NCBI GenBank assembly: GCA_964589175.1
Contig: CAZPRY010000001.1
Location: forward strand, 56,253-120,252
DNA length: 64,000 bases
Direction: 5' to 3'
Source: an uncultured bacterium
GTDB taxonomy: Bacteria; Fidelibacterota; UBA2242
Part shown: positions 7,386 to 28,560 of the stretch, piece by piece
Layout: every line of letters begins with the position of its first letter
Numbering within the stretch: the first letter of the stretch is position 1
Notes under the pieces: model-generated
What the model was told of the DNA's origin: nothing
The model's input: only the letters and a program-made list of their open reading frames with translations
Database searches by the model: none
Position numbers and translations under genes: made by a program

Positions 7386-8426
7386 ATGGCGACAACCATT
7401 AAAGACATTGCGGAAAAAGCCGGTGTTTCCATCTCGACGGTTTCCTTGATTTTAAACAATAAGGGTCGGGTCGCTCATTCTACCCGGCAGCAGGTTGAGA
7501 CAATTATCCGGGACTTAAACTACCGGCCGCTGCATTCGGCGCGCAAACTGGCAACCCAGATGACCGGAAATGTCGGATACATCATCTGGGAAGAATATTT
7601 TTCCGAAGTGGAAATGTTCTATAGCCAGGTTTTTCTCGGGATGGAATGTGCCGCCCGTGTGAACGATTACTATATACTGTTGACGACGGTCAAGGAGAAG
7701 TTCAATCCGAAAACAGATTTGCCAAGGTTCCTTAAGTATAATGACGTTGACGGAGTCGTTCTGGTGGGCCGGGTGCCGATGACATTGATCGAATACCTGG
7801 ATCATCAGAAGATACCCTTCGTGCTGATCGACTATGAGGTGCCTGGCAAAAATTATAATTATATCAAGATCGACAACTACAACGGGGCTTTTCGGGCAGT
7901 CGAAAACCTTGTTCTGTCAGGCCGGAAAAATATCGCTTTTGTGGGGGGATCCTATTTTCACCCCTCCATAAAAGAGAGATACCGGGGCTACCGCGAGGCC
8001 CTTGAGATTCACAATTTCGAGATATCCAGGATTGAAAAGTACAGTTATCGTAAAAATATAGAGACATCCCGATCCGTCGGGGAGGCCGGTGCGGCCTATC
8101 TTTTGGAAGCCTATCCCGAAATCGACGCCATCTTCGCCTGCACGGATCACACGGCGCTGGGCGTCATCGAAGGTATCCAGAAGTTGAATCGCAAAATCCC
8201 GGATGAAATAGCGATAATCGGGTTTGATGATATATCGCTTGCGATGTACAACAAACCGAAATTATCCACCCTCAGTGTTCCTAAAATGGAAATCGGGAAA
8301 GCGGCCTTCAAATTGCTGAATGAATTGATCAATAATCCCGGGATGGCCCCCCAAACGAGGGTCTTATCCGTCGATCTGATAATTCGGGAAAGCAGTCTGT
8401 CGAATGGTGATGGTAATCGACCTTGA
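7386..8426 (+). CDS. LacI-family transcriptional regulator
   Basis: N-terminal HTH (TIKDIAEKAGVSISTVSLILNN) followed by a periplasmic-binding-protein-like sugar-binding fold. 346 aa. Confidence 0.85.
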   Translation: MATTIKDIAEKAGVSISTVSLILNNKGRVAHSTRQQVETIIRDLNYRPLHSARKLATQMTGNVGYIIWEEYFSEVEMFYSQVFLGMECAARVNDYYILLTTVKEKFNPKTDLPRFLKYNDVDGVVLVGRVPMTLIEYLDHQKIPFVLIDYEVPGKNYNYIKIDNYNGAFRAVENLVLSGRKNIAFVGGSYFHPSIKERYRGYREALEIHNFEISRIEKYSYRKNIETSRSVGEAGAAYLLEAYPEIDAIFACTDHTALGVIEGIQKLNRKIPDEIAIIGFDDISLAMYNKPKLSTLSVPKMEIGKAAFKLLNELINNPGMAPQTRVLSVDLIIRESSLSNGDGNRP

Positions 8427-8471
8427 ATTGGAAGTCTGTTGTGAATATTCATGGTTTTATGGAGTTCTCAA

Positions 8472-9488
8472 ATGATTACAATTAAAGATATAGCCCAAGC
8501 CGCCGAATGTTCCCTGTCGACCGTATCGAAAGCGATCAATGGCAGAGATGATATCAGCGCCTCGACGCGCGCGCGGATCCTCAAAATCGTTGAAGAATTG
8601 GATTACACTCCCAACGCATTCGGCAAAGGATTGAAAAATAAAAAAACCGAAAATATTGGCGTGATTTTTTCCCGGGAAAGCAGACCTCTGTCATTGAATC
8701 CGTTCTACTCCCGGGTGCTGGAGGGAATAGAAGCCGAATTGGCAATCAACGACTATAATCTGGTCTTGCACATGTTACCTGAAAAATATGACGGCGAGTA
8801 TCCGAAAATGCTTAAAGAGCATAACGTAGACGGCATCATCCTGTTCAGTGCTCTGCATGATCGACTGATCCAGCAGCTGTCGGATGACATGATTCCGATG
8901 GTGCATGTGGATCCCGGTGTGAATTCGGACAGGTGCAGCCAGGTGATCATTGATAATGAACGCGGCGCTTTTCTGGCAACCCAGTATTTGATCCATAATG
9001 GACATAAGAAAATCGCCTTTATATCCCCTGATATTGATCGCGAGAGCTTTCGTCTGCGATATCTCGGATTTCGACGCGCCATGGATCATTATCGTCTGAA
9101 AATGGATGAACGCTACATACGGATAGGCGGGCTGGAACAGGGGTATGAGCAGGTCAGGGATCTGGTGCAATTAAAGAAACGCCCAACAGCCATTTTTATC
9201 ACCAATGATCTCAACGTCATGTACGCCTATCAGGCGATTAAGGACTGTAATCTGACGCTTCCCGATGATATCAGCATCATCGGATTCGATGATATTTCGT
9301 GGGCGAAAAGCGCCACGCCGTCTTTGACCACCATCCGGGTTTATAAGGAGGAGATGGGATCCATCGCCGTCCGGATGCTATTGAGAATTATTAATAACGA
9401 ATTGAATTCTCCGGTGACGACTATGATTCCGGTGAGACTGGTCGAACGAAAATCGGTTAAAAATCTCTCCCAACCGGATGGAACATAG
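8472..9488 (+). CDS. LacI-family transcriptional regulator (second, tandem)
   Basis: HTH motif ITIKDIAQAAECSLSTVSKAING, with a GGAG RBS 8 nt upstream of the ATG at 8472. It is a paralog of the upstream gene. The track ORF starts 21 nt earlier. Confidence 0.85.
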   Translation: MITIKDIAQAAECSLSTVSKAINGRDDISASTRARILKIVEELDYTPNAFGKGLKNKKTENIGVIFSRESRPLSLNPFYSRVLEGIEAELAINDYNLVLHMLPEKYDGEYPKMLKEHNVDGIILFSALHDRLIQQLSDDMIPMVHVDPGVNSDRCSQVIIDNERGAFLATQYLIHNGHKKIAFISPDIDRESFRLRYLGFRRAMDHYRLKMDERYIRIGGLEQGYEQVRDLVQLKKRPTAIFITNDLNVMYAYQAIKDCNLTLPDDISIIGFDDISWAKSATPSLTTIRVYKEEMGSIAVRMLLRIINNELNSPVTTMIPVRLVERKSVKNLSQPDGT

Positions 9489-9549
9489 TGAACATCAGAT
9501 ATCAAAATACACGATAAGATGAACAATATCACACGAGAGGAGGACTGAA

Positions 9550-12500
9550 ATGAAGAGGGCTATTGTATTTTTTTGCGTATGCACCGTTGCCTTGAGCGGG
9601 GGTCTGTTTGCTCAGGTGATTTTTGATTTTGAAACGGATAATGGCGGATTTACACTAAAGTCCGATCCAAATTATGATTTGATTACTTCGGTAGCACAAG
9701 CCAGCGATCCTTCCGGCTTAAGCGGCGGGGCCCTGGCAGTCACCATGGATTTTAATGCATCGACCGGAAAGAAGGGAAATGCCTATGTCGCAGCTTTTGA
9801 TCCCGGAGATGCTCGTGTAATAACTTTTTATGTTTGGTTGCCAAGCGGTATACCGGATTCCACTTACATCAAGTATTTTGCTCAGGATAAAAATTGGACT
9901 TACACCGATGCTCAATTCTGGGTCAGTGCTATTCCCAAAGAAGTCTGGTTTCCATTGCAATTGAACCTGGAGGCTGCAAATATTAAGAGTAGCTCCTTCG
10001 ATGTGGCCGAAGGTGCTCTACAAACTCTTGGAATTCAATTTATCTCCAGTTATGAACACGATGCGGATGCTTCCTGGACCGGCACTGCTTATATCGATAA
10101 TGTTACTCTTTTAGGCGTTAATCCGACAGTGCTGTTTGATTTCGAAAGCGATGATAGTGGGTTTATATTAGCTTACGATTTTTTTACATCTCTGGTGCAC
10201 GCCGCAGATCCAGCCGCTGCAAGTAGTGGTGCTCTGGCAGCCACCCTAAATGCAGATTTGACAGCCAATAAAAAAGGGAATGTATATAAGAATACAAAGA
10301 TTGGCGCAAGTGATGCCCATATGGCAACTGTTTATGTCTGGTGTCCGGCAGACTTACCCAATAACGTCTATTTCAAGTTTTATTTTAAGGATAATAACTG
10401 GACGACCGCGTATTCGAATTATCTGTATTATGCCAGTGCTATACCCAAAGAAGTTTGGTATCCACTGCAATACGATCTGGAAGCAGCCCACCTTAAGAGC
10501 AGTTCTTTCGATGTAGCGGAAGGTGATTTGCAGACGGTGGGGCTTGAGGTGCAATCCTACGGTTTGTCAGGTGCTGACACGCTTTATACCGGCACGATCT
10601 ACATTGATAATATTTCGTTTTTAGGTGTTGAGGTTCCTGATGAAAGACCCAGATATGTCATCGCTGATTTTGAAGATGAAGCCGAAGGAACGGTTGGCTT
10701 TAAAGCCAGTACTTCAGCCGGATATGCAGCGCTTACCAATGTAGCCCGGATAGCCGATCCGACTTCTGAAACAGTCGGTGTGCTCGGTACCGATTGGAAT
10801 TTCAGTCTGGCAACCAAAGGCTGGGCATACAATTCGACCTTTGATCTGCTCTGGGATTCCACCGGGTATGCCGCCGGCGGTCCTCTTGATACCGGGGCCA
10901 CGGCTGTTTCCATAGATATTTTTATTCCCGGCGATTTTCCGGTTTCCGGGGAATCTTTCGGACTTGTTCTGCGTGATCATAAAAACTGGAAATGGTATGA
11001 GAGTAAGTTTACGGTCGATGGATCCAATCTGGTTGCCGGACAGTGGAATACCTTGGAGATAGATGTACTCTATTATTTCGGTCTGGAAAACAAATTTTTC
11101 CCTTACTATACCGTTGATTTTGGAGTACAGATCTCTCATTCCAGCAATAATACCTGGACTGGCAGCATTCTTTTCGATAATGTGACATTGATAGGTGTGG
11201 AAGCACCGGAAGAACCGATTGATGAAACTCCCAAATATGTCGTGGCAGCTTTCGAAAAAGAGGCGGCCGGTGTCCAGGGTTATGCGAAAAGCACAACGGC
11301 AGGTTTCGAAGCCTGCACGGGAGTCGCACGTATTGCCGATCCGACCAGTGTGTCCGAAGGCGTCTTGAGCGGCAGCTGGGATTTCAGCCGCAGCGCGAAA
11401 GGATACATCGGTAACGGCAGTTTCAATCTTTTCTGGGCCGATACGGGTACCGTGGTCGATACCGGCGCCACGGCTATCCGGGTCGACGTTTGGATTCCGG
11501 CTGACTTTCCGGTCTCCGACGGGACACTGGGCCTGGTTCTGCGCGACAAGGTGGGCTGGACCTGGAACGAAACGAAATATCCTCTTAGCGATTCAATAAC
11601 AGTCGTTCCCGGTGCGTGGAACACCTTTTCTTTGGATGTTTTGCAGTATATCTTGAATGGCACGTTTAATCCGTATGGGACGAGTTCCTTTGGTATTCAG
11701 CTGCAGCATTCGAGCAATACCACCTGGCAAGGTGACGTTTATTTCGATAACGTTACTCTGGTGGGAGTCGAAGAACCCGAAGGCGTTTTGGTATCACCGA
11801 TTTCGATTGGAGCGGTCGAGACCTACAGCGATGTTGGGATTCCCTTCGATTATGTCCATATCGTCTGGGTGGATAATACAATCGGTTCCGAAACATACCG
11901 GGTCTACGTGAGCCTGTCCGAAATCACCGATCTGGATGCAGCCGGTGTCACCCGGATCGCGCGTGAAATTCCCCATGGAACGGAATACTGGAATTACCGG
12001 CCCTATAGCCGTACGGCGGAAGAAAATACCTATTATTTCGCCGTGATTGCAATGGGTGCCGACGGTACCCTCAGCGATCTGAATAATGACTGCAAAGTCG
12101 GACCTGTTACGATTACGACTTCGGCTACGGCCAAAGCGTTGTACGATCCGTGGTTTGCCCAATCCTTCGTGTTGGACGGCTTGGATACGGAATTTCTGGA
12201 TATGCACAAAGCCTATTTAATCACCGCCGAAGTGGCCGGGGGAACGGATACTGCCGGCTGGACGCCGGCATCCACCGATATGAGTTTCAAGACTACTTTT
12301 GTGGTTGATGACGATTATCTCTATATCTCCACGGATGTGACCGATAATGATCTGAATGCTTCCGGGAACGAGGCTATCATCGGCGGCCAGGCCTGGATGG
12401 GCGACGCCTTGGAATTCTATATGGGCATCTATGATGTCAATCCGTTGCATCAACTGCACGGTTACCGGGATGTGATGACCGAAGGAACCGGCGATTACCG

Positions 12501-13134
12501 GATTAGTTTCTGCGCTTGGGGAGAGGTGCAGAGCGCGACCGCCGTGCACGCTTTTCCGGGACTTCAAAGCACGCATTACCAAAAATTTTCGGGTGACGGC
12601 TATATCATTGAAGCCCGTATTGCGCTGGATTCCCTGGCTCAGGGCGGCAATATCGACATTGCCGATGGCGTGATGCTGCCTCTCAGAATCGACGGGACGG
12701 ATCTGGATCCGACTGACAACGACGAGACCCGGTCACTGATTGCTCAATGGGGCAGTAATAGCAATAGCGAAAACTGGTTGAGACCGAGTTGCTGGGGCTA
12801 CCTGGAGGTGTTGGTGGATCCGTCGATTTTGGCGATTGAAGAATCCGATTTACCCAAACAGTTCCGGCTCTATCCCAACTATCCCAATCCCTTTAATCCG
12901 GTGACTACTATCCAATTTGAATTGCCCAAGGCAACTGATATTTCCATGGCGGTGTACGATCTGCTTGGCAATGAGGTTCGGACGCTGGTCAGGGAAAAGA
13001 AGGATGCCGGTACCTATTTTGTCCAATGGAATGGCCGCAATAACCAGGGCGCCCAGGTTACCAGCGGTATCTACTTTTGCCGATTTACGACACTTGAATA
13101 TACGCGTACCCAGAAAATGATTTTCCTGAAGTAA
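9550..13134 (+). CDS. Secreted multi-domain glycan-binding protein: signal peptide, 4x ~170-aa CBM-like repeats, CBM9/DOMON-like domain, T9SS C-terminal sorting domain
   Basis: 1194 aa. The signal peptide is MKRAIVFFCVCTVALSGGLFAQ. Internal repeats start at VIFDFETDNGGF, VLFDFESDDSGF, YVIADFEDEAEG and YVVAAFEKEAAG, and each ends ...IDNVTLLGV. The C-terminus reads YPNYPNPFNPVTTIQFELP...GIYFCRF...K (Por_Secre_tail type). Confidence 0.7.
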   Translation: MKRAIVFFCVCTVALSGGLFAQVIFDFETDNGGFTLKSDPNYDLITSVAQASDPSGLSGGALAVTMDFNASTGKKGNAYVAAFDPGDARVITFYVWLPSGIPDSTYIKYFAQDKNWTYTDAQFWVSAIPKEVWFPLQLNLEAANIKSSSFDVAEGALQTLGIQFISSYEHDADASWTGTAYIDNVTLLGVNPTVLFDFESDDSGFILAYDFFTSLVHAADPAAASSGALAATLNADLTANKKGNVYKNTKIGASDAHMATVYVWCPADLPNNVYFKFYFKDNNWTTAYSNYLYYASAIPKEVWYPLQYDLEAAHLKSSSFDVAEGDLQTVGLEVQSYGLSGADTLYTGTIYIDNISFLGVEVPDERPRYVIADFEDEAEGTVGFKASTSAGYAALTNVARIADPTSETVGVLGTDWNFSLATKGWAYNSTFDLLWDSTGYAAGGPLDTGATAVSIDIFIPGDFPVSGESFGLVLRDHKNWKWYESKFTVDGSNLVAGQWNTLEIDVLYYFGLENKFFPYYTVDFGVQISHSSNNTWTGSILFDNVTLIGVEAPEEPIDETPKYVVAAFEKEAAGVQGYAKSTTAGFEACTGVARIADPTSVSEGVLSGSWDFSRSAKGYIGNGSFNLFWADTGTVVDTGATAIRVDVWIPADFPVSDGTLGLVLRDKVGWTWNETKYPLSDSITVVPGAWNTFSLDVLQYILNGTFNPYGTSSFGIQLQHSSNTTWQGDVYFDNVTLVGVEEPEGVLVSPISIGAVETYSDVGIPFDYVHIVWVDNTIGSETYRVYVSLSEITDLDAAGVTRIAREIPHGTEYWNYRPYSRTAEENTYYFAVIAMGADGTLSDLNNDCKVGPVTITTSATAKALYDPWFAQSFVLDGLDTEFLDMHKAYLITAEVAGGTDTAGWTPASTDMSFKTTFVVDDDYLYISTDVTDNDLNASGNEAIIGGQAWMGDALEFYMGIYDVNPLHQLHGYRDVMTEGTGDYRISFCAWGEVQSATAVHAFPGLQSTHYQKFSGDGYIIEARIALDSLAQGGNIDIADGVMLPLRIDGTDLDPTDNDETRSLIAQWGSNSNSENWLRPSCWGYLEVLVDPSILAIEESDLPKQFRLYPNYPNPFNPVTTIQFELPKATDISMAVYDLLGNEVRTLVREKKDAGTYFVQWNGRNNQGAQVTSGIYFCRFTTLEYTRTQKMIFLK

Positions 13135-13146
13135 TTCTCCCTTTGA

Positions 13147-13185
13147 AAACGGAGCGGTTTCGAACAGAGATCGCTCCGTTTTTGA
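13147..13185 (+). terminator. Rho-independent terminator after the CBM-repeat gene
   Basis: A 10-bp perfect stem (AAACGGAGCG / CGCTCCGTTT) with a 15-nt loop, followed by TTTTG, lies 13 nt after the stop at 13134. Confidence 0.55.
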
Positions 13186-16307: not shown

Positions 16308-17395
16308 ACTTTTTGGGAGAACTGCCGATGTACCCCGATGATCGTTTACTAAAACTGAGGCAACGGGCTGCCCTGCTCGGATTGCTGCTTGCTCTGTTGA
16401 CCGGTTTAGCGTTCCGTCCGCTTCAAGCCCAGACCGTTTCCAAGGTCGGTACTTCGGCCGCGAGTTTTCTGAAAATCGGTGTCGGCGGACGCGCTCTCGG
16501 GATGGGAGAAGCGTTTACGACCCAGGCGGACGACATCACGGCTATTTTCTGGAATCCGGCCGGCCTGGCCACTTTCCGGAATACGCAGATTCTGCTCAAT
16601 CATTACGATTATATCGCCGATCTCAGCTTCGATTACGGCGCGATTGCGACCGCCATCCCTGCCATTGGCACCGTCGGCGTTCACGTTTGTTTTTTAGGGA
16701 TGCCCGATATCGAGCGCACGACGGTCCAGGAACCCGACGGCACCGGCGAGATGGTTACGGCTTCCTCGATGACCGCCGGGGTCAGCTATGCCCGCAACCT
16801 GACCGATCGCTTTGCTATCGGCGGGACTGCCAAATATATCCAGGAAAAACTCTGGCATTGCAGCGCGTCCGGCTACGCCCTGGATGTCGGTGTTTTGTAC
16901 CGTACCTTTTTTAAGAATATCATGATCGGTATGTCGATATCGAATTTCGGTACGAATCTGCAACTTAAGGGACGAGACCTGCTGATCCAGCACGATATCG
17001 ACGAACGGAGCGACGGCAACAATGCCAACATAAACGGCTACCTGGCGTCCGATGCCTACAGTCTGCCCATCCTGTTCCGGGTCGGCGTCTCATCGAATCT
17101 GACCCGAGATTTTCTGAATATCCGGAATACTGATTTCATCATCTCCGTGGATGCCGTTCATCCCAGCGATAACTATGAATATCTGAATGTGGGCGCCGAA
17201 TATCAGTATCGCAATTTGATTGCCTTGCGCGCCGGCTACCGGCAATTGTACCTGGAGAATAGTGAAGGAGGACTGACTTTTGGCTTCGGTTTGCATCTGG
17301 ATGTAAAGAGTTTCAATTTCCGGGTTGATTATGCCGCCGTGGATTTCGGGCACCTGGACCGCCTCAACAAGTTTTCTTTGATATTATCATTCTAA
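16304..17395 (+). CDS. PorV/PorQ-family-like outer-membrane beta-barrel protein (T9SS-associated?)
   Basis: 363 aa with a signal peptide. The N-terminal motif is FLKIGVGGRALGMGEAFTTQADDITAIFWNPAGLA, which I recall as characteristic of the PorV/PorQ family (from memory, not searched). The C-terminus ends in an aromatic residue (LSF). It overlaps the TBDR stop by 4 nt. Confidence 0.5.
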   Translation: MNFLGELPMYPDDRLLKLRQRAALLGLLLALLTGLAFRPLQAQTVSKVGTSAASFLKIGVGGRALGMGEAFTTQADDITAIFWNPAGLATFRNTQILLNHYDYIADLSFDYGAIATAIPAIGTVGVHVCFLGMPDIERTTVQEPDGTGEMVTASSMTAGVSYARNLTDRFAIGGTAKYIQEKLWHCSASGYALDVGVLYRTFFKNIMIGMSISNFGTNLQLKGRDLLIQHDIDERSDGNNANINGYLASDAYSLPILFRVGVSSNLTRDFLNIRNTDFIISVDAVHPSDNYEYLNVGAEYQYRNLIALRAGYRQLYLENSEGGLTFGFGLHLDVKSFNFRVDYAAVDFGHLDRLNKFSLILSF

Positions 17396-21025: not shown

Positions 21026-21035
21026 GAATTGCATT

Positions 21036-22493
21036 GTGTTCTCGATTTGCCAAAACAGACCTGTGCATTCACTTTTACTTCTATGTCTGGTTGTTTGTCT
21101 TGGTTGGCATTGCGGACCGCCTTCCGACGCCGTTGTCGCCCGCTTCGGCAAACAAAAGATCTTGCTCGGAGAATTCAAAATCGGCTACCTTGACCTGCTG
21201 AAAAAGCCGCATGTCCTGGATTCGGCGGAGTTACGTGAAAATTTCCTGAATGAGATGATCAACCAGCGTCTGATTGCAGCTGCGGCGCGCGCGCGCGGCT
21301 TGCAGAACGATGATAAATTCCGCTACAGAGTCGATGCTTATCGCGATAAATGTCTGCGGGATGCTCATTACCAGGAAATTATTCAACCGCAAATCCGGGT
21401 TGATGAAGAAAAATTGAGAGAAGTATATTCGTATATTACTCAACAGCGGCATCTTCGCCACTTCTTCTTTAAAACCGAAGAAGAGGCTGATCAATATTAT
21501 CAGCGATTATTGGACGGCGAATCCTGGGATGCGCTGGCAGCGGAAGTTATCGCGGATAGTTTGCTGGCCTGCAATGGAGGCGACCTGGGCTGGGTTTACT
21601 GGGACCAGCTGGAATACGAAATGGGCCTGGCGGCGTTTCGCCTGAAAGTCGATGCGATTTCAGCGCCGGTGTCGTCATCGTTCGGATTTCATATCGTCAA
21701 GGTTGTGGATTACCGTATCGATCCGCTCGTCTCCGAAACGGAATTCGACCAGCGCCGCCGCAAAGTGAAATTTATGCTGGAAAAGAAAATCGGCGATAAA
21801 CTCGCGGCGGATTATATCACCGCGATGATGACCGCTAAGCACCTGCAAGTCCGCACCGACATTCTACGGATACTTTCGCAGAAGTTCATGTCCCCGTTCA
21901 GCCGCAATCCATCCCCGTATGATCAGATGCTGGAAGCGCAACTGACCCCCGCGGAAACCCGTGCGCTGGAAAATAAGTTCTGGGATTATCGCAACGCAAC
22001 GCTGGTTATCATCGATGGGAAACCGCTGACGGTCGGGGAATTTATTTATCAGCTGAATTATGTTCCCTTTGCGGCTGTCCGGCAGGGATTCAAAACGGCT
22101 TTGGATTTCGTGATCCGCGACCGGGTCCTGACCGATGAAGCCCGGCAAATGAAGCTGGAACGCAAATATCCGGCTGTTCGGCAGAAGGCTGTTATTTACG
22201 AAGATTACCTGCTGCAAACGGAACTGCGCCGGGACTTGGTTCGGAGTATCGAAATCAGCGAAGCGGCGATTGGGGACCGGTTCGAACGCGACCGGAATTC
22301 GCTTTACAAACAGTTGGAATTGGGGGAAGTTCGGGATACGATTTATGAAATCCTGGTCCAGGAAGCAAGACAGCGGGTAGTTAGCGACCTGATTGCGGAA
22401 TTACGAAGCCAGCAGAGCATCCGGACCGATTACCGGCCGATTCACACCTATTATGACAATCTGAAAAATGCGAGTACGGAGAACGAAAATTGA
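21036..22493 (+). CDS. Parvulin-type peptidyl-prolyl isomerase (SurA/PrsA-like chaperone)
   Basis: 485 aa with a signal/lipoprotein-like N-terminus. The PpiC domain reads GGDLGWVYWDQLEYEMGLAAFRLKVDAISAPVSSSFGFHIVKV. It has SurA-like N- and C-terminal chaperone regions. Confidence 0.7.
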   Translation: MFSICQNRPVHSLLLLCLVVCLGWHCGPPSDAVVARFGKQKILLGEFKIGYLDLLKKPHVLDSAELRENFLNEMINQRLIAAAARARGLQNDDKFRYRVDAYRDKCLRDAHYQEIIQPQIRVDEEKLREVYSYITQQRHLRHFFFKTEEEADQYYQRLLDGESWDALAAEVIADSLLACNGGDLGWVYWDQLEYEMGLAAFRLKVDAISAPVSSSFGFHIVKVVDYRIDPLVSETEFDQRRRKVKFMLEKKIGDKLAADYITAMMTAKHLQVRTDILRILSQKFMSPFSRNPSPYDQMLEAQLTPAETRALENKFWDYRNATLVIIDGKPLTVGEFIYQLNYVPFAAVRQGFKTALDFVIRDRVLTDEARQMKLERKYPAVRQKAVIYEDYLLQTELRRDLVRSIEISEAAIGDRFERDRNSLYKQLELGEVRDTIYEILVQEARQRVVSDLIAELRSQQSIRTDYRPIHTYYDNLKNASTENEN

Positions 22494-25399
22494 ATATCGG
22501 TCTGACGACAAAACGAATCCTGACAAGCCTGTTGTTTCCCCTGCTGATCGGATGGGCGCAGGTCACCGGTTTGCGGGAAGATTTCAATGATAATCTTTTA
22601 ACCGGCTGGGAAGTCCCGGCAGCGCACCAGGTTACCTACCAGATCGCCGAGACGGACAGTATGCTGGTGATTGCATATCACCGGACGGTCGCCAGTGGTG
22701 AATGGGATGTGATCAATTTTACACCGCCAGGCTTGATTGACATATCGGAGTTTGCCTTTATATCGATCCGGGCCAAATCCGATATCAAAACCGAACTGGT
22801 TCTGAAACCGAAATATGAAAACAGTGGCGATGACTGGCTGGAGCTGCAGTTGCCGGCCGATAATACCTGGCACAGCTACTTTTTCGAACTGGAGGCCGCG
22901 CCGCCGCTGGTTATGAACCGGATGTATCTTTACCTGGATGGCGGCACAAGCGCAATAAAATCCGGCACGATTTGCCTGGATGATTTCTGCGCGGGCGACC
23001 AGGTTGATACGAGCTATGTCGATGTGAGTTTGCTGGAAACGGCCATTACGGCAGCGATGGCCCTGTATAGTAATTCCGTCGAGGGCGACGGAGAAGGGTG
23101 GTTTCAATCCGGATCGAAAGCCGCCTTTCTTACGGCCATTCATGCGGCCCAGGGACTGATCGGTTCCGACTCCCTGACGCCGGAAAAGGTGGAAAAAGCA
23201 ACCTTGAGCCTATATGACGCCTGCGTCACTTTCGAGACGCAGGTCAATACGATTGATGTCGGAATCATTGACCGTATTGCCACGTGCGAAACCCGCTACC
23301 TGTACGCCAACCTGAAGAAACTGGCCCCGGATTACCTGATTTTTGGAATGCATGATGTCACGGGTTACGGTGTCGGCTGGAGCGGTGACGATGATCGCAG
23401 CGATGTCAAGGATGTCTGCGGCTCCTACCCGGCGCTCTACAGTGAGGATATGAATAAAATTACCCGGGGTATCGACGTCGATCGCGTGCGTTACCGCGTG
23501 ACTTCGGCCTACAATCGCGGCGGTATCACGACCTTTTCCTGGCATCAGATCGATCCGCTCGGCCGCGGATTCAATGCCAGCGATGTCAATCATGAAAACA
23601 TCGTCGCCACCTTGATACCGGGCGGGAAATATCACGAGGTATATAAAGAAAAACTACGTACGATCGCAATTTTCCTGAAGTCCCTGCGCGGACTGAATGG
23701 GCAAAATGTCCCGATCATCTTCCGACCTTATCACGAACATACCGGCGGCTGGTTCTGGTGGGGTGCCGGCGAGTGCAGCATAGACCAATACAACAGCATC
23801 TGGCAATTTACGGTTGGATTCCTGCGCGACTCGCTCAATGTGCATAATGTGTTGTATGCGCTCTCCCCTGCCGGTCAGCACGTTAATAGAAAAGAAGATT
23901 ATTATAATATTTTTCCAGGCGTCGATTATGTCGACATCTTTGGAGTTGACGATTATTTCAGCGACAATATCACGGAGTTCGAAAAGCATGAGTTTCAGAA
24001 GACCCTGTGTTACTGTGTGGAGGCCGCCCGCGATCACGATAAGGTTGCAGCACTGACCGAAACCGGCCAGGAGAATTTGCCGACCTCAAACTTTTTTACC
24101 GACGCCCTGCTGGAGCCCATCAAAACCGACACTATCGCCATGAAAATATCCTACGCCGCGGTCTGGCGCAATTCCTACGAACTGCATCATTTTGCGCCCT
24201 ACCCGGGGCATCCTACGGTTCCGGATTTCCTGGAATTTTACCGCGATCCGTTTACCTTGTTTGAAGACAATTTGCCCGATATGTACCGGCTGACCACAGC
24301 CGATTCCGCCTCACCTGTTTTCGTTGGTTATCCCGGGGAATACTTTGTCGCCTTCGATACGACGATCACATTGTCGGTCACGACTAACGAGCGCGCCTTC
24401 CTGCGCTACAGCGTAGCGGATGAATCCTACGAAATGATGCAATCCGAATTTCAAAACGGGCAGGGCACACTGTATCACAGCACGGAAGTTACCGGCCGGC
24501 AGGGCGGCGAGTATCGTTTTTATGTGCGCGCCGCCGATTACGCCGGTAATATTAGCGCTGCTCCGCTTGTCATCGATTTCAAGATCGATACTTTGCAGAA
24601 GCCGGTGCACTGGTTTGATAATCGTTATGCTGTCGACGATTGGCCGCAAGCCGCCGCCCCCTTCGTTTTCCAGGGCGAACAGGGTGGAGCGACGGCTGTC
24701 AATCCGGTGAGAACGGCCTATTTCCGCAAGACCTTCAGGCTGGAGAACGCCGCCGCCCAACGACAACTAATTGTACACCTGAACTATGATAATGGATTTG
24801 TGATCTATCTGAACGGCAACGAAGTCGATCGTCACGGAGTTCCCGAAGGGGATATCGCTTACGAAACCTGGGCGATGTCGGCCGCTTCCGGTCTGATGAC
24901 GCGGACCCTGGATGCCGCCGATTGCCGGTACCTGGTCGACGGTGAAAACTGGATCGCTGTGGAAGTTCACCAGGCAGAGTCGGATTCCAGCGATCTGCTC
25001 TTCGACCTGAGAATGATGGCGCCCACGTACCTCATCGAATTTGGCGCTAACTGGTATTATTACGATCTGGGTCAGCAGCCGCCGGATCGGACGGTAGGTA
25101 CGCTGGGAATTATTCCCGACTATACGGCTCTTCCGGAGAAATTGCTGCTCTACCCGAATTATCCAAATCCGTTCAATGCCGAAACGACGATCCGGTACTA
25201 TTTGCCGCAAAGCGAAGAAGTGAGCATGGCAATCTATGATATCCGGGGACGCAATATCAAAACGCTGGTTTCGGGTAAGCAAGCTTCCGGGCTGTATAGA
25301 ATCAATTTCGAGGCCGGTGACTTATCGACGGGAATTTATCTGCTGCGTATTGTCGCGGGGCAAGCGGCGGACACGCAGAAGTTGCTGCTGTTAAAATAA
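22490..25399 (+). CDS. Glycoside hydrolase family 26 (beta-mannanase-like) with GH2-N-like sugar-binding domain and T9SS C-terminal domain
   Basis: 969 aa. The GH26 signature region is FRPYHEHTGGWFWWGAGEC plus WHQIDP. Near aa 740 is a YFRKTFRLENAAAQRQLIVHLNYDNGFVIYLNG jelly-roll, as in GH2 N-terminal domains. The C-terminus reads YPNYPNPFNAETTIRYYLP...GIYLLRIVAG...K. It overlaps the PPIase by 4 nt. Confidence 0.75.
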   Translation: MNIGLTTKRILTSLLFPLLIGWAQVTGLREDFNDNLLTGWEVPAAHQVTYQIAETDSMLVIAYHRTVASGEWDVINFTPPGLIDISEFAFISIRAKSDIKTELVLKPKYENSGDDWLELQLPADNTWHSYFFELEAAPPLVMNRMYLYLDGGTSAIKSGTICLDDFCAGDQVDTSYVDVSLLETAITAAMALYSNSVEGDGEGWFQSGSKAAFLTAIHAAQGLIGSDSLTPEKVEKATLSLYDACVTFETQVNTIDVGIIDRIATCETRYLYANLKKLAPDYLIFGMHDVTGYGVGWSGDDDRSDVKDVCGSYPALYSEDMNKITRGIDVDRVRYRVTSAYNRGGITTFSWHQIDPLGRGFNASDVNHENIVATLIPGGKYHEVYKEKLRTIAIFLKSLRGLNGQNVPIIFRPYHEHTGGWFWWGAGECSIDQYNSIWQFTVGFLRDSLNVHNVLYALSPAGQHVNRKEDYYNIFPGVDYVDIFGVDDYFSDNITEFEKHEFQKTLCYCVEAARDHDKVAALTETGQENLPTSNFFTDALLEPIKTDTIAMKISYAAVWRNSYELHHFAPYPGHPTVPDFLEFYRDPFTLFEDNLPDMYRLTTADSASPVFVGYPGEYFVAFDTTITLSVTTNERAFLRYSVADESYEMMQSEFQNGQGTLYHSTEVTGRQGGEYRFYVRAADYAGNISAAPLVIDFKIDTLQKPVHWFDNRYAVDDWPQAAAPFVFQGEQGGATAVNPVRTAYFRKTFRLENAAAQRQLIVHLNYDNGFVIYLNGNEVDRHGVPEGDIAYETWAMSAASGLMTRTLDAADCRYLVDGENWIAVEVHQAESDSSDLLFDLRMMAPTYLIEFGANWYYYDLGQQPPDRTVGTLGIIPDYTALPEKLLLYPNYPNPFNAETTIRYYLPQSEEVSMAIYDIRGRNIKTLVSGKQASGLYRINFEAGDLSTGIYLLRIVAGQAADTQKLLLLK

Positions 25400-25407
25400 G
25401 GGAAACT

Positions 25408-26901
25408 GTGAAGATGAACGGCAATCCGAAATATTCCGCTCTTTTGATCTGGGGCCTGTGCTTAGCGTCTTTTCAGCAGGCGTTGGCTGTCGATTTTCCC
25501 CTCGTTTACGAAGCCGAAGAGGCGGCTTACGAAAGCCTGAAACTACGCTCCGATACGAAGGCCTCCGGTGGCGAATACCTGCAAATGCGCAAAAGCGGAA
25601 AAGTCGTTTGGAACATCGTTATGAGCGATGCGGGATGGTACAATCTCACGTTCCGGTACCGGTCGCCGCGGGGCGAGAAGGAGAACTTCGTTATTCAAAA
25701 CGGGGTAAAGCGGCCGATGGGATTCGGCCTAGCGGTAACCTGGACCGAAACGGCAAGACCGCTGGCCCTGAAGGCCGGTACCAATACCATTGAACTGGCG
25801 AGTAACTGGGGATGGATCGATATCGATTGCCTGATGATCGATACGGTTGTCCTTACCCCCGAAATTACACCGCACAAAAACGTCTTTTATACCAAATTTC
25901 CGCGTGATATTTTTGTTAAAGTCAATGCTTACGGACGATCGATTCAGTCGGTAACAGCAAACGGTTCACCATTGTTGTTCGACATGAATCCGTACGAATT
26001 CGAAGAGGACGCCCGGATGGTCAGGATTGACGGCCAATCACTTGCCGCATTACCGGAAGGCGAACATGCGATTTCGATTGATTTTGATACGGACGAATCC
26101 GTGACATTTCAACTCCGGGTAATGACCGGGCGGGCAGCTGCTGATTTGACGATCATTGCTCCCGATGTAAGTCACGGCAATTCGGTGTTGTTTCTCTTAC
26201 CGAACGGTAAAACGATGCTGGTGGATTGCGGGCAGGCCTTTATTCGCGATGGCGTGATTATCCCTTTATTAGAGCAAAACGGCATTTCTCACCTGGATTA
26301 TTTTATCCTCACGCATTATCATGACGATCATGACAGCGGTGATAAGGGCGCAACGATCCGCGACAGATTCAAGGTTGAAAATTTCCGGGATTACCGGGAT
26401 TTCAATGCCGGAGAGGAACTGGAAATCGGCGGCGTGCAGATTAAGATCCTGAACGCCTATGCGGACGGCACGGACGAAAATACCCGTTCCCTGGCATTTC
26501 AGTTGAAGTACAAGGGCTTTGTCTATCGCCATGATGCCGATATTTACGCCGATAACCAGCGCTCGATCATGCGCCGTTTTCCTGATGATGTCAGGGCCGA
26601 TGTCTATTTTGCCAATCATCACTTTCACGGCTCGTCCGATGCGGACTATCTGCGCGCCACCGATCCGACGGTCGTGCTCATTCAGGCTGAACAGGCGCTG
26701 TATGCCCGCAGCACCTACACGACGACATATCTGCTCGAGACAGTCAAATGGCTTCAGGACAACGAAGCGAAAACCGTTGAGAATTTACCGGCGATTGAAG
26801 TTGGAACGACGGTTATCCGGGTCAATTCGGTTGACGATTGGAACTATGAAACCTATAAAAACAGTGAAACTCCGCTTATCCCGTTTCTTCCTAAACGATG
26901 A
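25408..26901 (+). CDS. Secreted metallo-beta-lactamase-fold hydrolase (ComEC/Rec2-type MBL domain) with N-terminal CBM6/35-like domain
   Basis: 497 aa with a signal peptide. The N-terminal region is CBM-like (FPLVYEAEEAAYESLKLRSD...GEYLQMRKSGKVVWNIVMSDAGWYNLTFRYRS...IDIDCLMID). The MBL motifs are HGNSVLFLLPNGKTMLVDCG and LTHYHDDHDSG. Confidence 0.65.
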   Translation: MKMNGNPKYSALLIWGLCLASFQQALAVDFPLVYEAEEAAYESLKLRSDTKASGGEYLQMRKSGKVVWNIVMSDAGWYNLTFRYRSPRGEKENFVIQNGVKRPMGFGLAVTWTETARPLALKAGTNTIELASNWGWIDIDCLMIDTVVLTPEITPHKNVFYTKFPRDIFVKVNAYGRSIQSVTANGSPLLFDMNPYEFEEDARMVRIDGQSLAALPEGEHAISIDFDTDESVTFQLRVMTGRAAADLTIIAPDVSHGNSVLFLLPNGKTMLVDCGQAFIRDGVIIPLLEQNGISHLDYFILTHYHDDHDSGDKGATIRDRFKVENFRDYRDFNAGEELEIGGVQIKILNAYADGTDENTRSLAFQLKYKGFVYRHDADIYADNQRSIMRRFPDDVRADVYFANHHFHGSSDADYLRATDPTVVLIQAEQALYARSTYTTTYLLETVKWLQDNEAKTVENLPAIEVGTTVIRVNSVDDWNYETYKNSETPLIPFLPKR

Positions 26902-26946
26902 ATTTATACGGCGGTTAAATTTGGGGAACTGGGGTTTGGAATTAAA

Positions 26947-28560
26947 ATGAAGCGACGTGAATTCTTATCGCAGGTGGGTAAGAGCGTCGGCGGCGCGTGC
27001 CTGCTGCCTTTGATGTCCAATCTTTGCCGCTGCAGTGCCGGTCCAGCAAAAAAACAAAATGTCTTGTTCATTATTCTGGAAGATTTGAATACACAACTGG
27101 GCTGCTACGGCCGGCCGTATATGCATACGCCCAATATCGATCGTCTGGCCGGGGAAGGGATTTTGTTTAAGCGCGCCTATGTCCAGCAGGCCGTGTGCGC
27201 CGCCTCGCGTGCCAGCCTGTTTACCGGTTTGCATCCGGAATCGACCGGCGTCGATTACCCCTACAGTTACTATTTTGTCGAGGAGCTTTTGCCCAAATAC
27301 GGGACCCTGGCCCGGCAGTTTTTCAGGCACGGTTATTACACGCGGGATTTCAGCAAAATCCATCACGGCATTGTGGAAGACGATCTTTCCGCGCCGCACT
27401 TCGAGCCCCAATACCGGCCGTACATGCTTGCCGAAAACATCCGTCTCAGAGAAGAGAAGGGCAATTCGGCCACGCCGCCGTACGAGATGGCGGATTTGCC
27501 CGATGCCGAATATGCCGACGGACAGACAAGCGGGGCGGTGATCTCGGCCCTGCAGCTTGCCGCCCGGAGTGATGCACCGTTTTTCTTCTCGGTTGGATTT
27601 CTGAAACCGCATATTCCTTTCAATTCCCCCAGGAAATACTGGGATTTATACGAGCGCGAATCCATTCCACTAGCCGGGAACAAAGACCGCCCGGTGAATT
27701 TCCCGCCGATTGCCATGGATCGTTACAACCTGAAGCAATACACCTGGGAACACGACGATCCCGAGCGGCTGTTCAGCGATGATTATGCCCGCCTCATTCG
27801 TCATGCCTATTTCGCCTGCGTGAGCTTCATCGACGCGCAGATCGGGCGGATTCTTAATGAGTTGGATCGGTTGAAATTGCGGGAGAATACGACTGTCATT
27901 TTCCTGTCCGATCACGGCTTTCATCTGGGCGAGCAGAATCATTGGGGTAAAACGACCTTGTACGAGGCTTCGCTGCATGTTCCGCTTATCGTTTCAGTGC
28001 CGGGCATGAAGCTAAAGGGCGCTACCTGCAACGGACTGGTTGAATACGTGGACATCTACCCGACGTTGCTGGATCTGGCCGGAATTGAAATTCCCGATCA
28101 GGTTGAAGGTGTTAGTTTCAGGCCGCTGCTCGAAGAACCGTCGCGTAGGTGGAAGAGGGCGGCTTTCAGCCAACAGAGCCGCAGCATGATCGGTGAGAAA
28201 TACGGATTTTCGATGCGCACCGACCGCTATCGCTATACGGAGTGGAAGGAAGTCCTGCTGAACACAGTCCTGGCCCGTGAGTTGTACGATCTGGAGAACG
28301 ATCCCGATGAGACGATCAATATCGCCGGTCAATCGCGACCCGATTTGATCGATGTTTTATCACAACAACTGAAATCCGGCTGGCGCGGCGCTCTGCCGGA
28401 TGGTATCCGCAACCGCTCCGCCAATCCGCCGGCGCCGCCGGCCTATCCCTGGGGGCCTGAAGGGCAAAGTCGCCGCGATGTCTGGCATCGGAAATACGGC
28501 GGGAAAGAGGGCGACGACTGGCGGGAACTGACCCGCATTCGGATCGCACAAGACGCGTAA
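26947..28560 (+). CDS. Sulfatase (formylglycine-dependent arylsulfatase family), TAT/Sec exported
   Basis: 537 aa. The N-terminus has RREFL, and the sulfatase signature is CAASRASLFTG (the C-x-A-S-R FGly motif). The fold runs through FLSDHGFHLGE. Confidence 0.85.
   Translation: MKRREFLSQVGKSVGGACLLPLMSNLCRCSAGPAKKQNVLFIILEDLNTQLGCYGRPYMHTPNIDRLAGEGILFKRAYVQQAVCAASRASLFTGLHPESTGVDYPYSYYFVEELLPKYGTLARQFFRHGYYTRDFSKIHHGIVEDDLSAPHFEPQYRPYMLAENIRLREEKGNSATPPYEMADLPDAEYADGQTSGAVISALQLAARSDAPFFFSVGFLKPHIPFNSPRKYWDLYERESIPLAGNKDRPVNFPPIAMDRYNLKQYTWEHDDPERLFSDDYARLIRHAYFACVSFIDAQIGRILNELDRLKLRENTTVIFLSDHGFHLGEQNHWGKTTLYEASLHVPLIVSVPGMKLKGATCNGLVEYVDIYPTLLDLAGIEIPDQVEGVSFRPLLEEPSRRWKRAAFSQQSRSMIGEKYGFSMRTDRYRYTEWKEVLLNTVLARELYDLENDPDETINIAGQSRPDLIDVLSQQLKSGWRGALPDGIRNRSANPPAPPAYPWGPEGQSRRDVWHRKYGGKEGDDWRELTRIRIAQDA

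What the first reader, a model, noticed from the sequence alone, without database searches (positions are those of the whole stretch)
7386..28560. SusD-less, T9SS-coupled glycan (mannan?) utilisation locus under two tandem LacI regulators
After two paralogous LacI genes, eight co-oriented genes follow: a CBM-repeat protein, a TonB-dependent receptor, a PorV-like OMP, a Ca-binding/FN3 giant protein, a parvulin chaperone, a GH26, an MBL+CBM hydrolase and a sulfatase. Many overlap or are under 50 bp apart. A hairpin terminator follows only the first gene, and another follows the last. Three of the enzymes and binders carry T9SS C-terminal domains, and a PorV-like shuttle is embedded in the locus. 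This is a PUL-like arrangement that uses T9SS surface display plus a TBDR rather than the Bacteroidetes SusC/SusD pair. GH26 plus a sulfatase suggests a sulfated or substituted mannan or galactomannan substrate.
Basis: partly seen in the sequence, partly recalled or inferred. Interest (0 to 1): 0.5.

Follow-up and report, generated by a model that had tools for sequence, protein, structure and literature searches.

The report
SusD-less mannan locus with conserved uptake cassette
This is a beta-mannan utilisation gene cluster from a Marinimicrobia-like bacterium whose core (a TonB-dependent receptor, a PorV-like barrel and a 1,200-residue uncharacterised surface protein) recurs in hundreds of genomes across many phyla next to enzymes for different sugars, so it probably plays the role that SusC/SusD plays in Bacteroidetes.

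Summary
All ten co-oriented ORFs lie at the stated coordinates. HMMs confirm two LacI regulators, a CBM9 protein with a T9SS C-terminal domain (CTD), a TonB-dependent receptor (TBDR), a PorV/PorQ-family barrel, a SurA-like parvulin, a GH26 with a CTD, a CBM35-MBL protein and a sulfatase. Both hairpins are real. No SusD was found in the 30 window ORFs scanned.

The TBDR, the PorV-like barrel and the 1202-aa protein with no Pfam match ("P6") form a conserved cassette.
- P6 has at least 3,700 cluster representatives and at least 586 loci in species genomes. These span Marinimicrobia, Ignavibacteria, Calditrichota, KSB1, WOR-3, Fermentibacteria, Cloacimonadota and Gemmatimonadota.
- The window's subfamily sits with GH26, CBM9 and mannan-binding modules. 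A distant subfamily sits with GH13, CBM20 and CBM48.
- P6 has a carbohydrate-type beta-supersandwich and a specialised CTD whose presence tracks the PorV-like neighbour.

I read this as a beta-mannan locus built on a T9SS-assembled, SusD-independent uptake unit. The mechanism is inferred. "Sulfated mannan" is weakly supported. Ten literature searches found no description of the cassette.

The parts
7328..7365 (+). Promoter-like site (TTGACA-17-TAGATT, 7328-7356) followed by the CG-centred palindrome AAACGTTT (7358-7365). This is a candidate LacI operator. A second palindrome, AAAACGTTTT, lies at 7151-7160.
   Evidence: Similar CGAAAnCGnTTTCG palindromes occur upstream of LacI orthologs in L003, L005 and L008. 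Tentative.
7386..8426 (+). LacI-family regulator 1. It has no close ortholog in related loci.
   Evidence: Pfam LacI plus Peripla_BP_3. 34% identical to regulator 2. Only 26-33% hits in other loci.
8451..9488 (+). LacI-family regulator 2, the conserved cognate regulator of mannan-type loci.
   Evidence: Pfam. Orthologs at 48-56% identity lie upstream of the CBM9-protein gene in L003, L005, L008 and L009.
9550..13134 (+). T9SS-displayed multi-module binding protein. It has four tandem ~180-200-aa repeats, then CBM9, then a type-A CTD. No catalytic domain was found.
   Evidence: CBM9_1 and Por_Secre_tail. Repeats. The ortholog in L002 hits Mann_GBD_bact. No PDB or Pfam hit for the N-terminal 900 aa.
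13143..13185 (+). Intrinsic-terminator-like hairpin with a U-tract after gene 3.
   Evidence: dG -27.3 kcal/mol, z -6.1. Sequence.
13326..16307 (+). TonB-dependent receptor (993 aa) with an N-terminal CarboxypepD_reg-like domain and a plug. It is not SusC/RagA family. First gene of the cassette.
   Evidence: Pfam. No TIGR04056 hit. Only weak plug hits in the PDB. Adjacent to P6 in at least 62 of 81 loci.
16304..17395 (+). PorV/PorQ-family outer-membrane barrel, a new paralog subfamily. Proposed docking partner of the P6 C-terminal domain.
   Evidence: NF033709 at 195 bits against a cutoff of 90. Below the equivalog cutoffs for PorV, PorQ and PorV2. The only PDB sequence match is F. johnsoniae PorV, E=1.5e-8. 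Its presence tracks the specialised CTD of P6. Identity co-varies with P6, rho 0.82.
17417..21025 (+). P6, a 1202-aa secreted protein with no Pfam or NCBIfam family. Proposed surface glycan-capture or lid component.
17474..19633 (+). P6 conserved core: a beta-supersandwich interrupted by acidic DxDxDG-type loops, then an FN3-like domain.
19634..20686 (+). P6 variable region (residues 740-1090), the part that differs most between the mannan-type and other subfamilies.
20687..21022 (+). P6 specialised type-A-like CTD: VVPNPY, then a conserved ~15-aa insertion (WEPxNPYxxGRGPR), then the canonical D and E motifs, ending in K.
   Evidence: Alignment with canonical-CTD orthologs P0110 and P0112. Correlation with the PorV-like neighbour.
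21036..22493 (+). SurA-like parvulin PPIase, presumably a periplasmic chaperone. Fourth cassette gene in the window's subfamily.
   Evidence: Rotamase and SurA_N_3. Present in 16 of 19 close loci and 14 of 63 distant loci.
22490..25399 (+). T9SS-displayed GH26 beta-mannanase. Catalytic domain at residues 253-602, type-A CTD at 891-965.
   Evidence: Pfam. PDB CjMan26C E=5e-80 and 4zxo E=7e-74. GH26 present in 10 of 82 neighbour proteins of close loci.
25408..26901 (+). CBM35 + X2 + ComEC-like metallo-beta-lactamase-fold protein of unknown activity. It has a signal peptide and no CTD.
   Evidence: the CBM35 is closest to mannanase CBM35s. Orthologs lie next to P6 paralogs in L017 and L021.
26947..28560 (+). 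S1-type sulfatase with a Tat-like signal and a C-x-A-x-R motif. It is an accessory gene, not a conserved part of mannan-type loci.
   Evidence: Sulfatase only in window/L001 and L009.
28594..28623 (+). 13-bp-stem hairpin after the last gene, between convergent genes.
   Evidence: z -5.2. Sequence. No clean U-tract.

Best explanation
The region is a beta-mannan utilisation locus of a Marinimicrobia-related (FCB superphylum) bacterium.

Proposed working model:
1. LacI-type repression (inferred) controls the locus.
2. Gene 3, a multi-CBM protein, has its own terminator. It and the GH26 mannanase are exported by the T9SS through canonical type-A CTDs and act at the cell surface (inferred from the domains).
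3. Uptake is by a conserved outer-membrane cassette: a non-SusC TonB-dependent receptor, a dedicated PorV/PorQ-family barrel and the 1202-aa protein P6, plus a SurA-like parvulin.
4. I propose that P6 is exported by the T9SS and stays on the surface because its specialised, insertion-bearing CTD remains bound to the cognate PorV-like barrel. PorU is held by PorV and PorZ by PorQ in the same way.
5. P6 would then sit beside or over the TBDR as the glycan-capturing partner. This is the job SusD and the surface glycan-binding proteins do in Bacteroidota.
6. The parvulin would chaperone the large outer-membrane or secreted components in the periplasm.

Shown here: the gene content, the domain identities, the conservation and co-inheritance of the cassette, its substrate-specific subfamilies, and the correlation between CTD type and the PorV-like neighbour.

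Inferred: surface location, physical complex, glycan binding by P6, and regulation.
For: Mannan specificity:
- GH26 matches Cellvibrio Man26C at E=5e-80.
- The CBM35 is closest to mannanase CBM35s.
- The CBM9/Mann_GBD protein and GH26 recur in orthologous loci.

The cassette:
- P6 homologs at 33-82% identity number more than 3,000.
- 3,713 50%-cluster representatives match at E<=1e-3.
- At least 586 loci in species genomes span many FCB-type phyla.
- In 81 loci, TBDR-P6-PorVL occurs 48 times and TBDR-PorVL-P6 14 times. Most of the rest lie at contig ends or are ORF-calling artefacts.
- Identities co-vary: P6/PorVL rho 0.82, P6/TBDR rho 0.58.

General glycan platform:
- Close loci are rich in GH26 (10), CBM9 (9), Mann_GBD, GH5 and CBM35.
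- Distant loci are rich in GH13 (12), CBM20 (9), CBM48, X25 and LacI.
- Caldithrix abyssi grows on glucomannan and starch (PMC5317091). A Caldithrix sp. MAG (L076) is among the loci that carry the cassette.

P6 itself:
- Signal peptide and no lipobox.
- Conserved core against a variable 761-1080 region.

CTD and barrel pairing:
- P6 with the specialised CTD has a PorV-like neighbour in 72 cases. The 7 exceptions are at contig ends or have a second P6 copy in between.
- The two stand-alone P6 paralogs with a canonical CTD (L017, L021) have neither a PorV-like nor a TBDR neighbour.
- PorV-family barrels bind CTDs and hold PorU and PorZ (PMC5562754 and PMC10947112, titles and abstracts; the detail is from established knowledge).

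Absence of SusC/SusD.
Against: - No experiment and no complex model. A physical TBDR-P6-PorVL complex is inferred from synteny only.
- The P6 C-terminus fails Pfam and TIGRFAM CTD thresholds (CHU_C E=0.086).
- The supersandwich fold also occurs in non-binding contexts (YidC, mutarotases).
- No inner-membrane sugar transporter and no downstream mannoside enzymes lie in the window's locus, unlike several orthologous loci.
- No LacI-type operator was found upstream of gene 3 or the TBDR gene.
- SusD absence is shown for only 64 kb, not for the genome.
- The 80 loci examined are the best-scoring ones, so the range of substrates is under-sampled.
Confidence: 0.6

Rival explanations
1. The PorV-like barrel and P6 are a locus-specific T9SS secretion or attachment module. 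In this reading they are a private shuttle or sortase-like adaptor for the CTD-bearing enzymes of the locus. The TBDR imports products independently, without any P6-TBDR partnership.
For: The barrel is PorV/PorQ family. CTD proteins are the most common neighbours (21 of 82 and 25 of 81). PorZ appears weakly among the Foldseek hits (rank 19). PorU and PorZ are large CTD-bearing proteins held by PorV and PorQ (established knowledge; PMC5562754).
Against: P6 has no similarity to the PorU or PorZ models or to any peptidase. The TBDR is adjacent in essentially every complete locus, and its sequence co-varies with P6 and PorVL. P6 paralogs with a canonical CTD exist without any PorV-like gene yet still sit in mannan clusters. 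That points to a substrate-related role for P6 rather than a secretion role.
Confidence: 0.15
2. P6 is a surface enzyme, that is, a new glycan-active catalytic family, rather than a binding or lid protein. The cassette would then pair a depolymerase with its importer.
For: The supersandwich domain is typical of GH15, GH65, GH94 and GH116 enzymes. Many invariant acidic and aromatic residues lie in the N-terminal core. A confidently folded 350-aa region has no known structural neighbour.
Against: No (alpha/alpha)6 domain or other catalytic domain accompanies the supersandwich. The invariant core is shared by mannan-type and starch-type subfamilies, which is hard to square with one catalytic specificity. 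Dedicated GH genes are always present alongside.
Confidence: 0.15
3. The substrate is a sulfated or otherwise substituted mannan.
For: A Tat-signal S1 sulfatase with an intact C-x-A-x-R motif ends the gene row, 45 nt after the CBM35-MBL gene. A second Marinimicrobia mannan-type locus (L009) also carries a sulfatase. A CBM35-MBL protein of unknown activity could remove a substituent.
Against: The sulfatase is absent from the other ~15 independent mannan-type loci, which carry ABC transporter or two-component genes at that position instead. GH26, CBM9 and CBM35 say nothing about sulfation.
Confidence: 0.2
4. The clustering of the cassette with CAZymes is incidental, and the TBDR-P6-PorVL unit imports a non-glycan nutrient.
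For: P6 has no recognised CBM. The TBDR's weak PDB matches are to YncD and PqqU.
Against: Two distinct P6 subfamilies are each embedded, co-oriented and tightly spaced, among CAZymes and LacI regulators of one coherent specificity: mannan and starch.
Confidence: 0.05

Closest known systems
Bacteroidota polysaccharide utilisation loci (the SusC/SusD paradigm and 'utilisome' complexes)
   Same: A co-oriented cluster of regulator, outer-membrane TBDT, surface binding proteins and GHs for one glycan. The TBDR is ~1000 aa with an N-terminal CarboxypepD_reg-like domain, as in SusC. Paralogous cassettes exist for different substrates.
   Different: No SusD. The TBDR is not SusC/RagA family. The surface components are not lipoproteins but T9SS cargo. 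The conserved partner of the TBDR is a 130-kDa CTD-bearing protein plus a PorV-family barrel.
CUT loci of Proteobacteria (carbohydrate utilisation loci containing TBDRs; Blanvillain et al. 2007, PMC1790865)
   Same: SusD-less loci that combine a TBDR, a LacI-type regulator and glycoside hydrolases.
   Different: CUT loci have no T9SS, no PorV-like barrel and no P6-type partner, and they usually include an inner-membrane transporter. The window's locus has none. The TBDR here has a dedicated conserved surface partner.
T9SS attachment-complex pairs PorV-PorU and PorQ-PorZ (P. gingivalis; PMC5562754, PMC10947112)
   Same: A PorV/PorQ-family barrel is paired with a large secreted protein. In the known pairs the protein's CTD is retained and used for anchoring. 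Here the specialised CTD strictly co-occurs with its barrel.
   Different: The barrel is below the PorV, PorQ and PorV2 equivalog cutoffs. P6 is unrelated to PorU and PorZ. The pair is encoded next to a TBDR inside catabolic loci and exists in many substrate-specific paralogs.
Type-B CTD cargo with a cognate PorP/SprF-like partner (Flavobacterium SprB/SprF)
   Same: A giant T9SS cargo is encoded next to a dedicated outer-membrane partner that is needed for its export or anchoring (from my own knowledge, not tested here).
   Different: Here the CTD is derived from type A and the partner is PorV/PorQ family, not PorP/SprF.
Non-SusD lipoprotein 'lids' of non-SusC TBDTs in Bacteroides (bioRxiv 10.1101/2023.03.17.533168)
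   Same: The idea that TBDTs outside the SusC family have their own families of surface partners encoded next to them.
   Different: Those lids are lipoproteins. P6 has no lipobox and carries a CTD.

Membership tests
Bacteroidota SusC/SusD-type PUL | SusC/RagA-family TBDT (TIGR04056) | tested here: not met
   NCBIfam scan at E<=0.01 gives no SusC/RagA model. PDB sequence search gives only weak plug hits to YncD and PqqU, with no SusC or RagA chains. It does share the CarboxypepD_reg-like N-terminal domain.
Bacteroidota SusC/SusD-type PUL | Adjacent SusD-family lipoprotein gene | tested here: not met
   No SusD Pfam family among the 30 window ORFs scanned, including all ORFs of 370 aa or more. 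The rest of the genome cannot be tested.
Bacteroidota SusC/SusD-type PUL | Clustered CAZymes and a regulator for one glycan | tested here: met
   GH26, CBM9, CBM35 and two LacI genes. The same set occurs in orthologous loci.
CUT locus (TBDR-containing carbohydrate utilisation locus) | TBDR plus CAZyme plus transcriptional regulator | tested here: met
CUT locus (TBDR-containing carbohydrate utilisation locus) | Inner-membrane sugar transporter in the locus | tested here: not met
   None among the ten genes. Orthologous loci L002 and L003 do carry ABC solute-binding and permease genes.
T9SS type-A cargo | C-terminal Por_Secre_tail (PF18962 / TIGR04183) | tested here: met
   Gene 3: 30.2 and 36.7 bits. 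GH26: 38.5 and 40.4 bits.
T9SS type-A cargo (P6) | C-terminal Por_Secre_tail (PF18962 / TIGR04183) | tested here: inconclusive
   No hit at threshold (CHU_C E=0.086). It aligns motif by motif with orthologs P0110 and P0112, which score 42 bits for PF18962, apart from a conserved ~15-aa insertion.
PorV/PorQ family outer-membrane protein | NF033709 family model above its cutoff | tested here: met
   194.9 bits against a cutoff of 90. PDB PorV 6h3i_F at E=1.5e-8.
PorV, PorQ or PorV2 proper (T9SS core components) | Equivalog models NF033710, NF033711 and NF052325 above their cutoffs | tested here: not met
   72.5 bits against 250, 93.8 against 220 and 97.6 against 325. It is a distinct paralog subfamily.
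GH26 beta-mannanase | GH26 catalytic domain | tested here: met
   PF02156 at 129.8 bits against a cutoff of 20.2. Residues 253-602 align to full-length CjMan26C at E=5e-80.
GH26 beta-mannanase | Catalytic glutamate pair present, and activity on mannan | not tested
   No residue-level check was made. Activity needs an assay.
LacI/GalR repressor | N-terminal LacI HTH plus periplasmic-binding-protein-like effector domain | tested here: met
   Both proteins.
LacI/GalR repressor | Cognate palindromic operator at regulated promoters | tested here: inconclusive
CG-centred palindromes lie upstream of LacI1, but none was detected upstream of gene 3 or the TBDR gene.
S1 formylglycine sulfatase | Sulfatase domain and the C/S-x-P/A-x-R motif | tested here: met
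   PF00884 at 175 bits. CAASR at residue 84.

The most novel reading that the evidence does not exclude
The TBDR / P6 / PorV-like (+ SurA-like) cassette is a previously unrecognised outer-membrane glycan-capture machine spanning many phyla. In this reading it is the functional counterpart of SusC/SusD in the non-Bacteroidia FCB phyla (Marinimicrobia, Ignavibacteria, Calditrichota, KSB1, WOR-3, Fermentibacteria, Cloacimonadota, Gemmatimonadota). A giant T9SS-exported protein would be held permanently next to its transporter by a specialised CTD bound to a private PorV paralog. Substrate-specific paralogs would exist for mannan, starch and probably other glycans.
Probability: 0.45. Interest if true: 0.8.

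Novelty: new variant of a known kind. Interest (0 to 1): 0.62.

Why it matters
Glycan uptake in the FCB superphylum is understood almost only through SusC/SusD. How the abundant SusD-poor lineages import polysaccharide fragments is open. These include Marinimicrobia in the dark ocean, Ignavibacteria, and Calditrichota and KSB1 in sediments.

A conserved, easily recognised three- or four-gene marker would have several uses:
- PUL-like loci could be predicted in these phyla in the way susC/susD pairs are used in PULDB.
- Substrates could be assigned to thousands of 'hypothetical' 1,200-aa proteins.
- It would reveal a second use of PorV-family barrels, as permanent anchors for nutrient-capture proteins.

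Cultivated carriers make the idea directly testable. A MAG assigned to Melioribacter roseus (L018) and a Caldithrix sp. MAG (L076) carry the cassette, and Caldithrix abyssi is reported to grow on glucomannan and starch (PMC5317091).

Tried and rejected
- Rfam and tRNA scans of the window found nothing.
- An exact look-up of the window's P6 failed. The 100%-identical cluster representative P0001 led to ENA contig k141_379993.
- Foldseek of full-length P6 against the PDB gave only generic FN3/Ig strings with TM below 0.1, which is uninformative.
- A profile search of P6 against PDB sequences gave no hit at E<=0.1.
- Pfam at E<=1 on pieces of P6, of gene 3 and of the GH26 flanks gave nothing usable.
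- I expected the variable region of P6 to look like a CBM. A confident sub-model (pLDDT 89.6) has no convincing PDB neighbour, so that expectation is not supported.
- The afdb50 fold library was unavailable, so I obtained no UniProt names or locus tags from cultured strains.
- I prepared fused PorV-like + linker + CTD sequences for a pseudo-complex prediction.
- A strict search for CGAAAACGTTTTCG in the window was not enriched (10 matches against 5.4 expected), and none lies in the locus promoters.
- I considered that L017's 936-aa and 486-aa genes next to a canonical-CTD P6 might be SusC and SusD. They are GH2 and GH5.
- Cluster-member names gave no taxonomy. RarA homologs did, pointing to Marinimicrobia at 63-65% identity.
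- Ten literature searches found no description of the cassette. The Melioribacter and Caldithrix genome papers do not mention it.

Full report

Pfam and NCBIfam confirm the following:
- Two LacI-family regulators.
- A 1194-aa protein with CBM9 and a type-A T9SS C-terminal domain (CTD).
- A 993-aa TonB-dependent receptor with a CarboxypepD_reg-like N-terminal domain and a plug.
- A PorV/PorQ-family barrel (NF033709, 195 bits against a cutoff of 90).
- A SurA-like parvulin.
- A GH26 with a CTD.
- A CBM35 + X2 + metallo-beta-lactamase-fold protein.
- An S1 sulfatase, with a C-x-A-x-R motif.

The first large protein really is a repeat protein. It has four tandem 180-200-aa modules: R1/R2 are 49% identical, R3/R4 are 53% identical, and across the pairs identity is about 26%, far above shuffles. 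These modules have no Pfam match in this copy.

From the TBDR gene onwards the genes overlap by 4 nt or lie 8-45 nt apart. The only long gap is 191 nt, and it holds a 19-bp hairpin with a U-tract (dG -27.3, z -6.1). A 13-bp hairpin follows the sulfatase gene.

Only two CTDs pass HMM thresholds. The 1202-aa protein, called P6 here, has no Pfam or NCBIfam hit at all.

**Source organism.**
- The window is 99% identical to an ENA metagenome contig.
- The housekeeping RarA protein has its best named relatives (63-65% identity) in Candidatus Marinimicrobia/Neomarinimicrobiota.
- Five more CTD proteins lie just downstream, so the organism has many T9SS cargo proteins.
- No SusD family appears among the 30 window ORFs scanned.
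- The TBDR is not SusC/RagA family by NCBIfam or by PDB sequence search.

**The central finding.** P6 is not an oddity of this locus.
- It has more than 3,000 homologs at 33-82% identity, all named 'hypothetical'.
- 3,713 50%-identity cluster representatives match at E<=1e-3, and 472 at E<=1e-30.
- At least 586 loci occur in a one-genome-per-species collection. They come from Calditrichota, KSB1, Neomarinimicrobiota, Ignavibacteriales and Melioribacteraceae (including a Melioribacter roseus MAG), WOR-3, Fermentibacteria, Stahlbacteria, Kryptonium, Fidelibacterota, Cloacimonadota and Gemmatimonadota.

In the 80 loci fetched plus three from exact look-ups, P6 is flanked by a TBDR and a PorV-like barrel.
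- The order TBDR-P6-PorVL occurs 48 times.
- The window's order, TBDR-PorVL-P6, occurs 14 times.
- Most of the rest lie at contig ends or are ORF-calling artefacts.
- The three proteins' identities to the window copies co-vary: P6/PorVL rho 0.82, TBDR/PorVL 0.68, P6/TBDR 0.58. They are inherited as a unit.
- A SurA-like parvulin follows P6 in 16 of 19 close loci and is nearby in 14 of 63 distant ones.

**Substrate-specific subfamilies.** I ran Pfam on the co-oriented neighbours of the cassette.
- In the close subfamily (P6 mostly >=55% identical) the neighbours are CTD proteins (21 of 82), parvulins (16), GH26 (10), CBM9 (9), Mann_GBD, GH5, CBM35 and ABC solute-binding proteins.
- In the distant subfamily (about 34% identical) they are CTD proteins (25 of 81), GH13 (12), CBM20 (9), CBM48, pullulanase X25, CBM53, GH94 and LacI (9).

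So the same cassette is embedded in mannan-type loci and in starch-type loci.

The window belongs to the mannan type.
- Its GH26 catalytic domain matches Cellvibrio japonicus Man26C at E=5e-80.
- Its CBM35 is closest to mannanase CBM35s.
- Caldithrix abyssi is reported to grow on starch and glucomannan (PMC5317091).

**Anatomy of P6.**
- It has a signal peptide and no lipobox.
- Foldseek sees FN3-like strings.
- Comparison of 17 mannan-type with 61 other P6 proteins shows a conserved core: residues 121-200, 281-360, the acidic 441-520 segment, 561-760 and the last 120 residues. The region 761-1080 is variable.

**The C-terminus and the PorV-like barrel.** The last ~110 residues of P6 align motif by motif with canonical type-A CTDs (PNP-aromatic, IxIY..G..V, GVYxY...K-end). 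They also carry a conserved ~15-residue insertion, WEPxNPYxxGRGPR. This explains the failed HMM match.

Two orthologs (P0110 and P0112, 45-47% identical) have a canonical CTD in the same place (42 bits for PF18962).

The correlation across loci is as follows:
- P6 with the specialised CTD has a PorV-like gene beside it in 72 cases.
- The 7 exceptions are at contig ends or have a second P6 copy in between.
- The two stand-alone P6 paralogs with a canonical CTD (L017, L021; 10-kb flanks) have neither a PorV-like nor a TBDR neighbour.
- L017 lies inside a GH2/GH5/GH26/CBM35-MBL mannan cluster, on the same contig as a complete cassette (L016).

The barrel itself is PorV/PorQ family but falls below the PorV, PorQ and PorV2 equivalog cutoffs. 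Its only PDB sequence relative is F. johnsoniae PorV.

PorV-family barrels are known CTD receptors. In P. gingivalis, PorU and PorZ are held at the surface by PorV and PorQ (PMC5562754, PMC10947112).

**Proposed mechanism.** Synteny, domains and correlations are shown. The rest is inferred.
1. LacI2, the regulator with orthologs in related loci, represses the locus, perhaps together with LacI1.
2. The multi-CBM protein and the GH26 are displayed by the T9SS and cut beta-mannan at the surface.
3. P6 is exported by the T9SS and stays docked through its specialised CTD on its private PorV-like barrel beside the TBDR. There it captures or hands over oligosaccharides.
4. The TBDR imports the oligosaccharides.
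5. The parvulin chaperones these large components.

Functionally this is what SusC/SusD plus surface glycan-binding proteins do. None of the surface parts here is a lipoprotein, and neither SusC nor SusD membership is met.

**Weak points.**
- There is no physical evidence for a complex.
- The P6 variable region has no known binding fold.
- The window's locus has no inner-membrane transporter.
- No operator was detected upstream of gene 3 or the TBDR gene.
- SusD absence is shown for 64 kb only.

**Regulatory details.** Upstream of LacI orthologs in L003, L005 and L008 there are CG-centred palindromes of the type CGAAAnCGnTTTCG. The window has AAAACGTTTT (7151-7160) and AAACGTTT (7358-7365). 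The second lies immediately after a TTGACA-17-TAGATT promoter-like site. This is tentative: a strict motif search is not enriched.

**Sulfated mannan.** The sulfatase is intact and close to the preceding gene, and one other Marinimicrobia mannan-type locus (L009) has a sulfatase. The other mannan-type loci do not. I give this sub-hypothesis about 0.2.

**Comparison and novelty.** As a SusD-less TBDR + LacI + GH cluster, the locus resembles the CUT loci of Proteobacteria (PMC1790865). As a glycan-specific, paralog-rich outer-membrane system, it resembles Bacteroidota PULs. The barrel-plus-CTD pairing resembles PorV-PorU and PorQ-PorZ, and, by analogy, SprF-SprB.

I could not find the combination described. 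Ten full-text searches and the Melioribacter and Caldithrix genome papers do not mention it. The library is incomplete, so prior description cannot be excluded.

I rate the locus a new variant of a known kind. The more novel reading is that the cassette is the general SusCD counterpart of non-Bacteroidia FCB phyla. I give that about 0.45.

Noticed in passing
window 24417-25416: Against the near-identical ENA contig L001 (99.0% over 23.6 kb, 0-16 mismatches per kb elsewhere), this 1-kb stretch has 124 mismatches. It encodes the non-catalytic C-terminal modules and the CTD of the GH26 protein. This is a local hypervariable or recombined segment.
   Followed up: no
window 29872-40169 (- strand): A block of five T9SS-CTD proteins: two VIT+VWA+CTD, one VWA+CTD, and two paralogous 614- and 623-aa CTD proteins with no other clear domain.
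   Followed up: no
window 40429-43284 (- strand): A beta-lactamase-fold (PF00144) protein next to a NamZ exo-beta-N-acetylmuramidase, with another PF00144 protein at 54572-55825. The only cultured Marinimicrobia relative, Fidelibacter multiformis, is reported to live on exogenous muropeptides (PMC11652737 abstract), so this may be a muropeptide-scavenging set.
   Followed up: no
window 4001-6043: GC drops to 41% against about 52% elsewhere, around an AAA_14/DUF4143 ATPase gene (4892-6043, - strand). This may be an inserted element just upstream of the locus.
   Followed up: no
L017 10001-13477, L021 10001-13306, L022 10001-14719: P6 paralogs with a canonical type-A CTD occur without TBDR or PorV-like neighbours. 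L017 lies inside a GH2/GH5/GH26/CBM35-MBL mannan cluster, and L021 is the second case. L022 (WOR-3) has two P6 genes in tandem, the second with a canonical CTD.
   Followed up: partly
window 25408-26901; L017 13866-15329; L021 13359-14813: A CBM35 + ComEC-like metallo-beta-lactamase-fold protein recurs next to or near P6 in mannan clusters of different lineages (42-43% identity). Its activity is unknown; it may remove a substituent from mannan.
   Followed up: partly
[not shown]
   Followed up: partly
window 47857-48987: A DUF6588-family protein (E=2.5e-28) lies between housekeeping genes. The 300-aa ORF at 49011-49913 has no Pfam hit.
   Followed up: no
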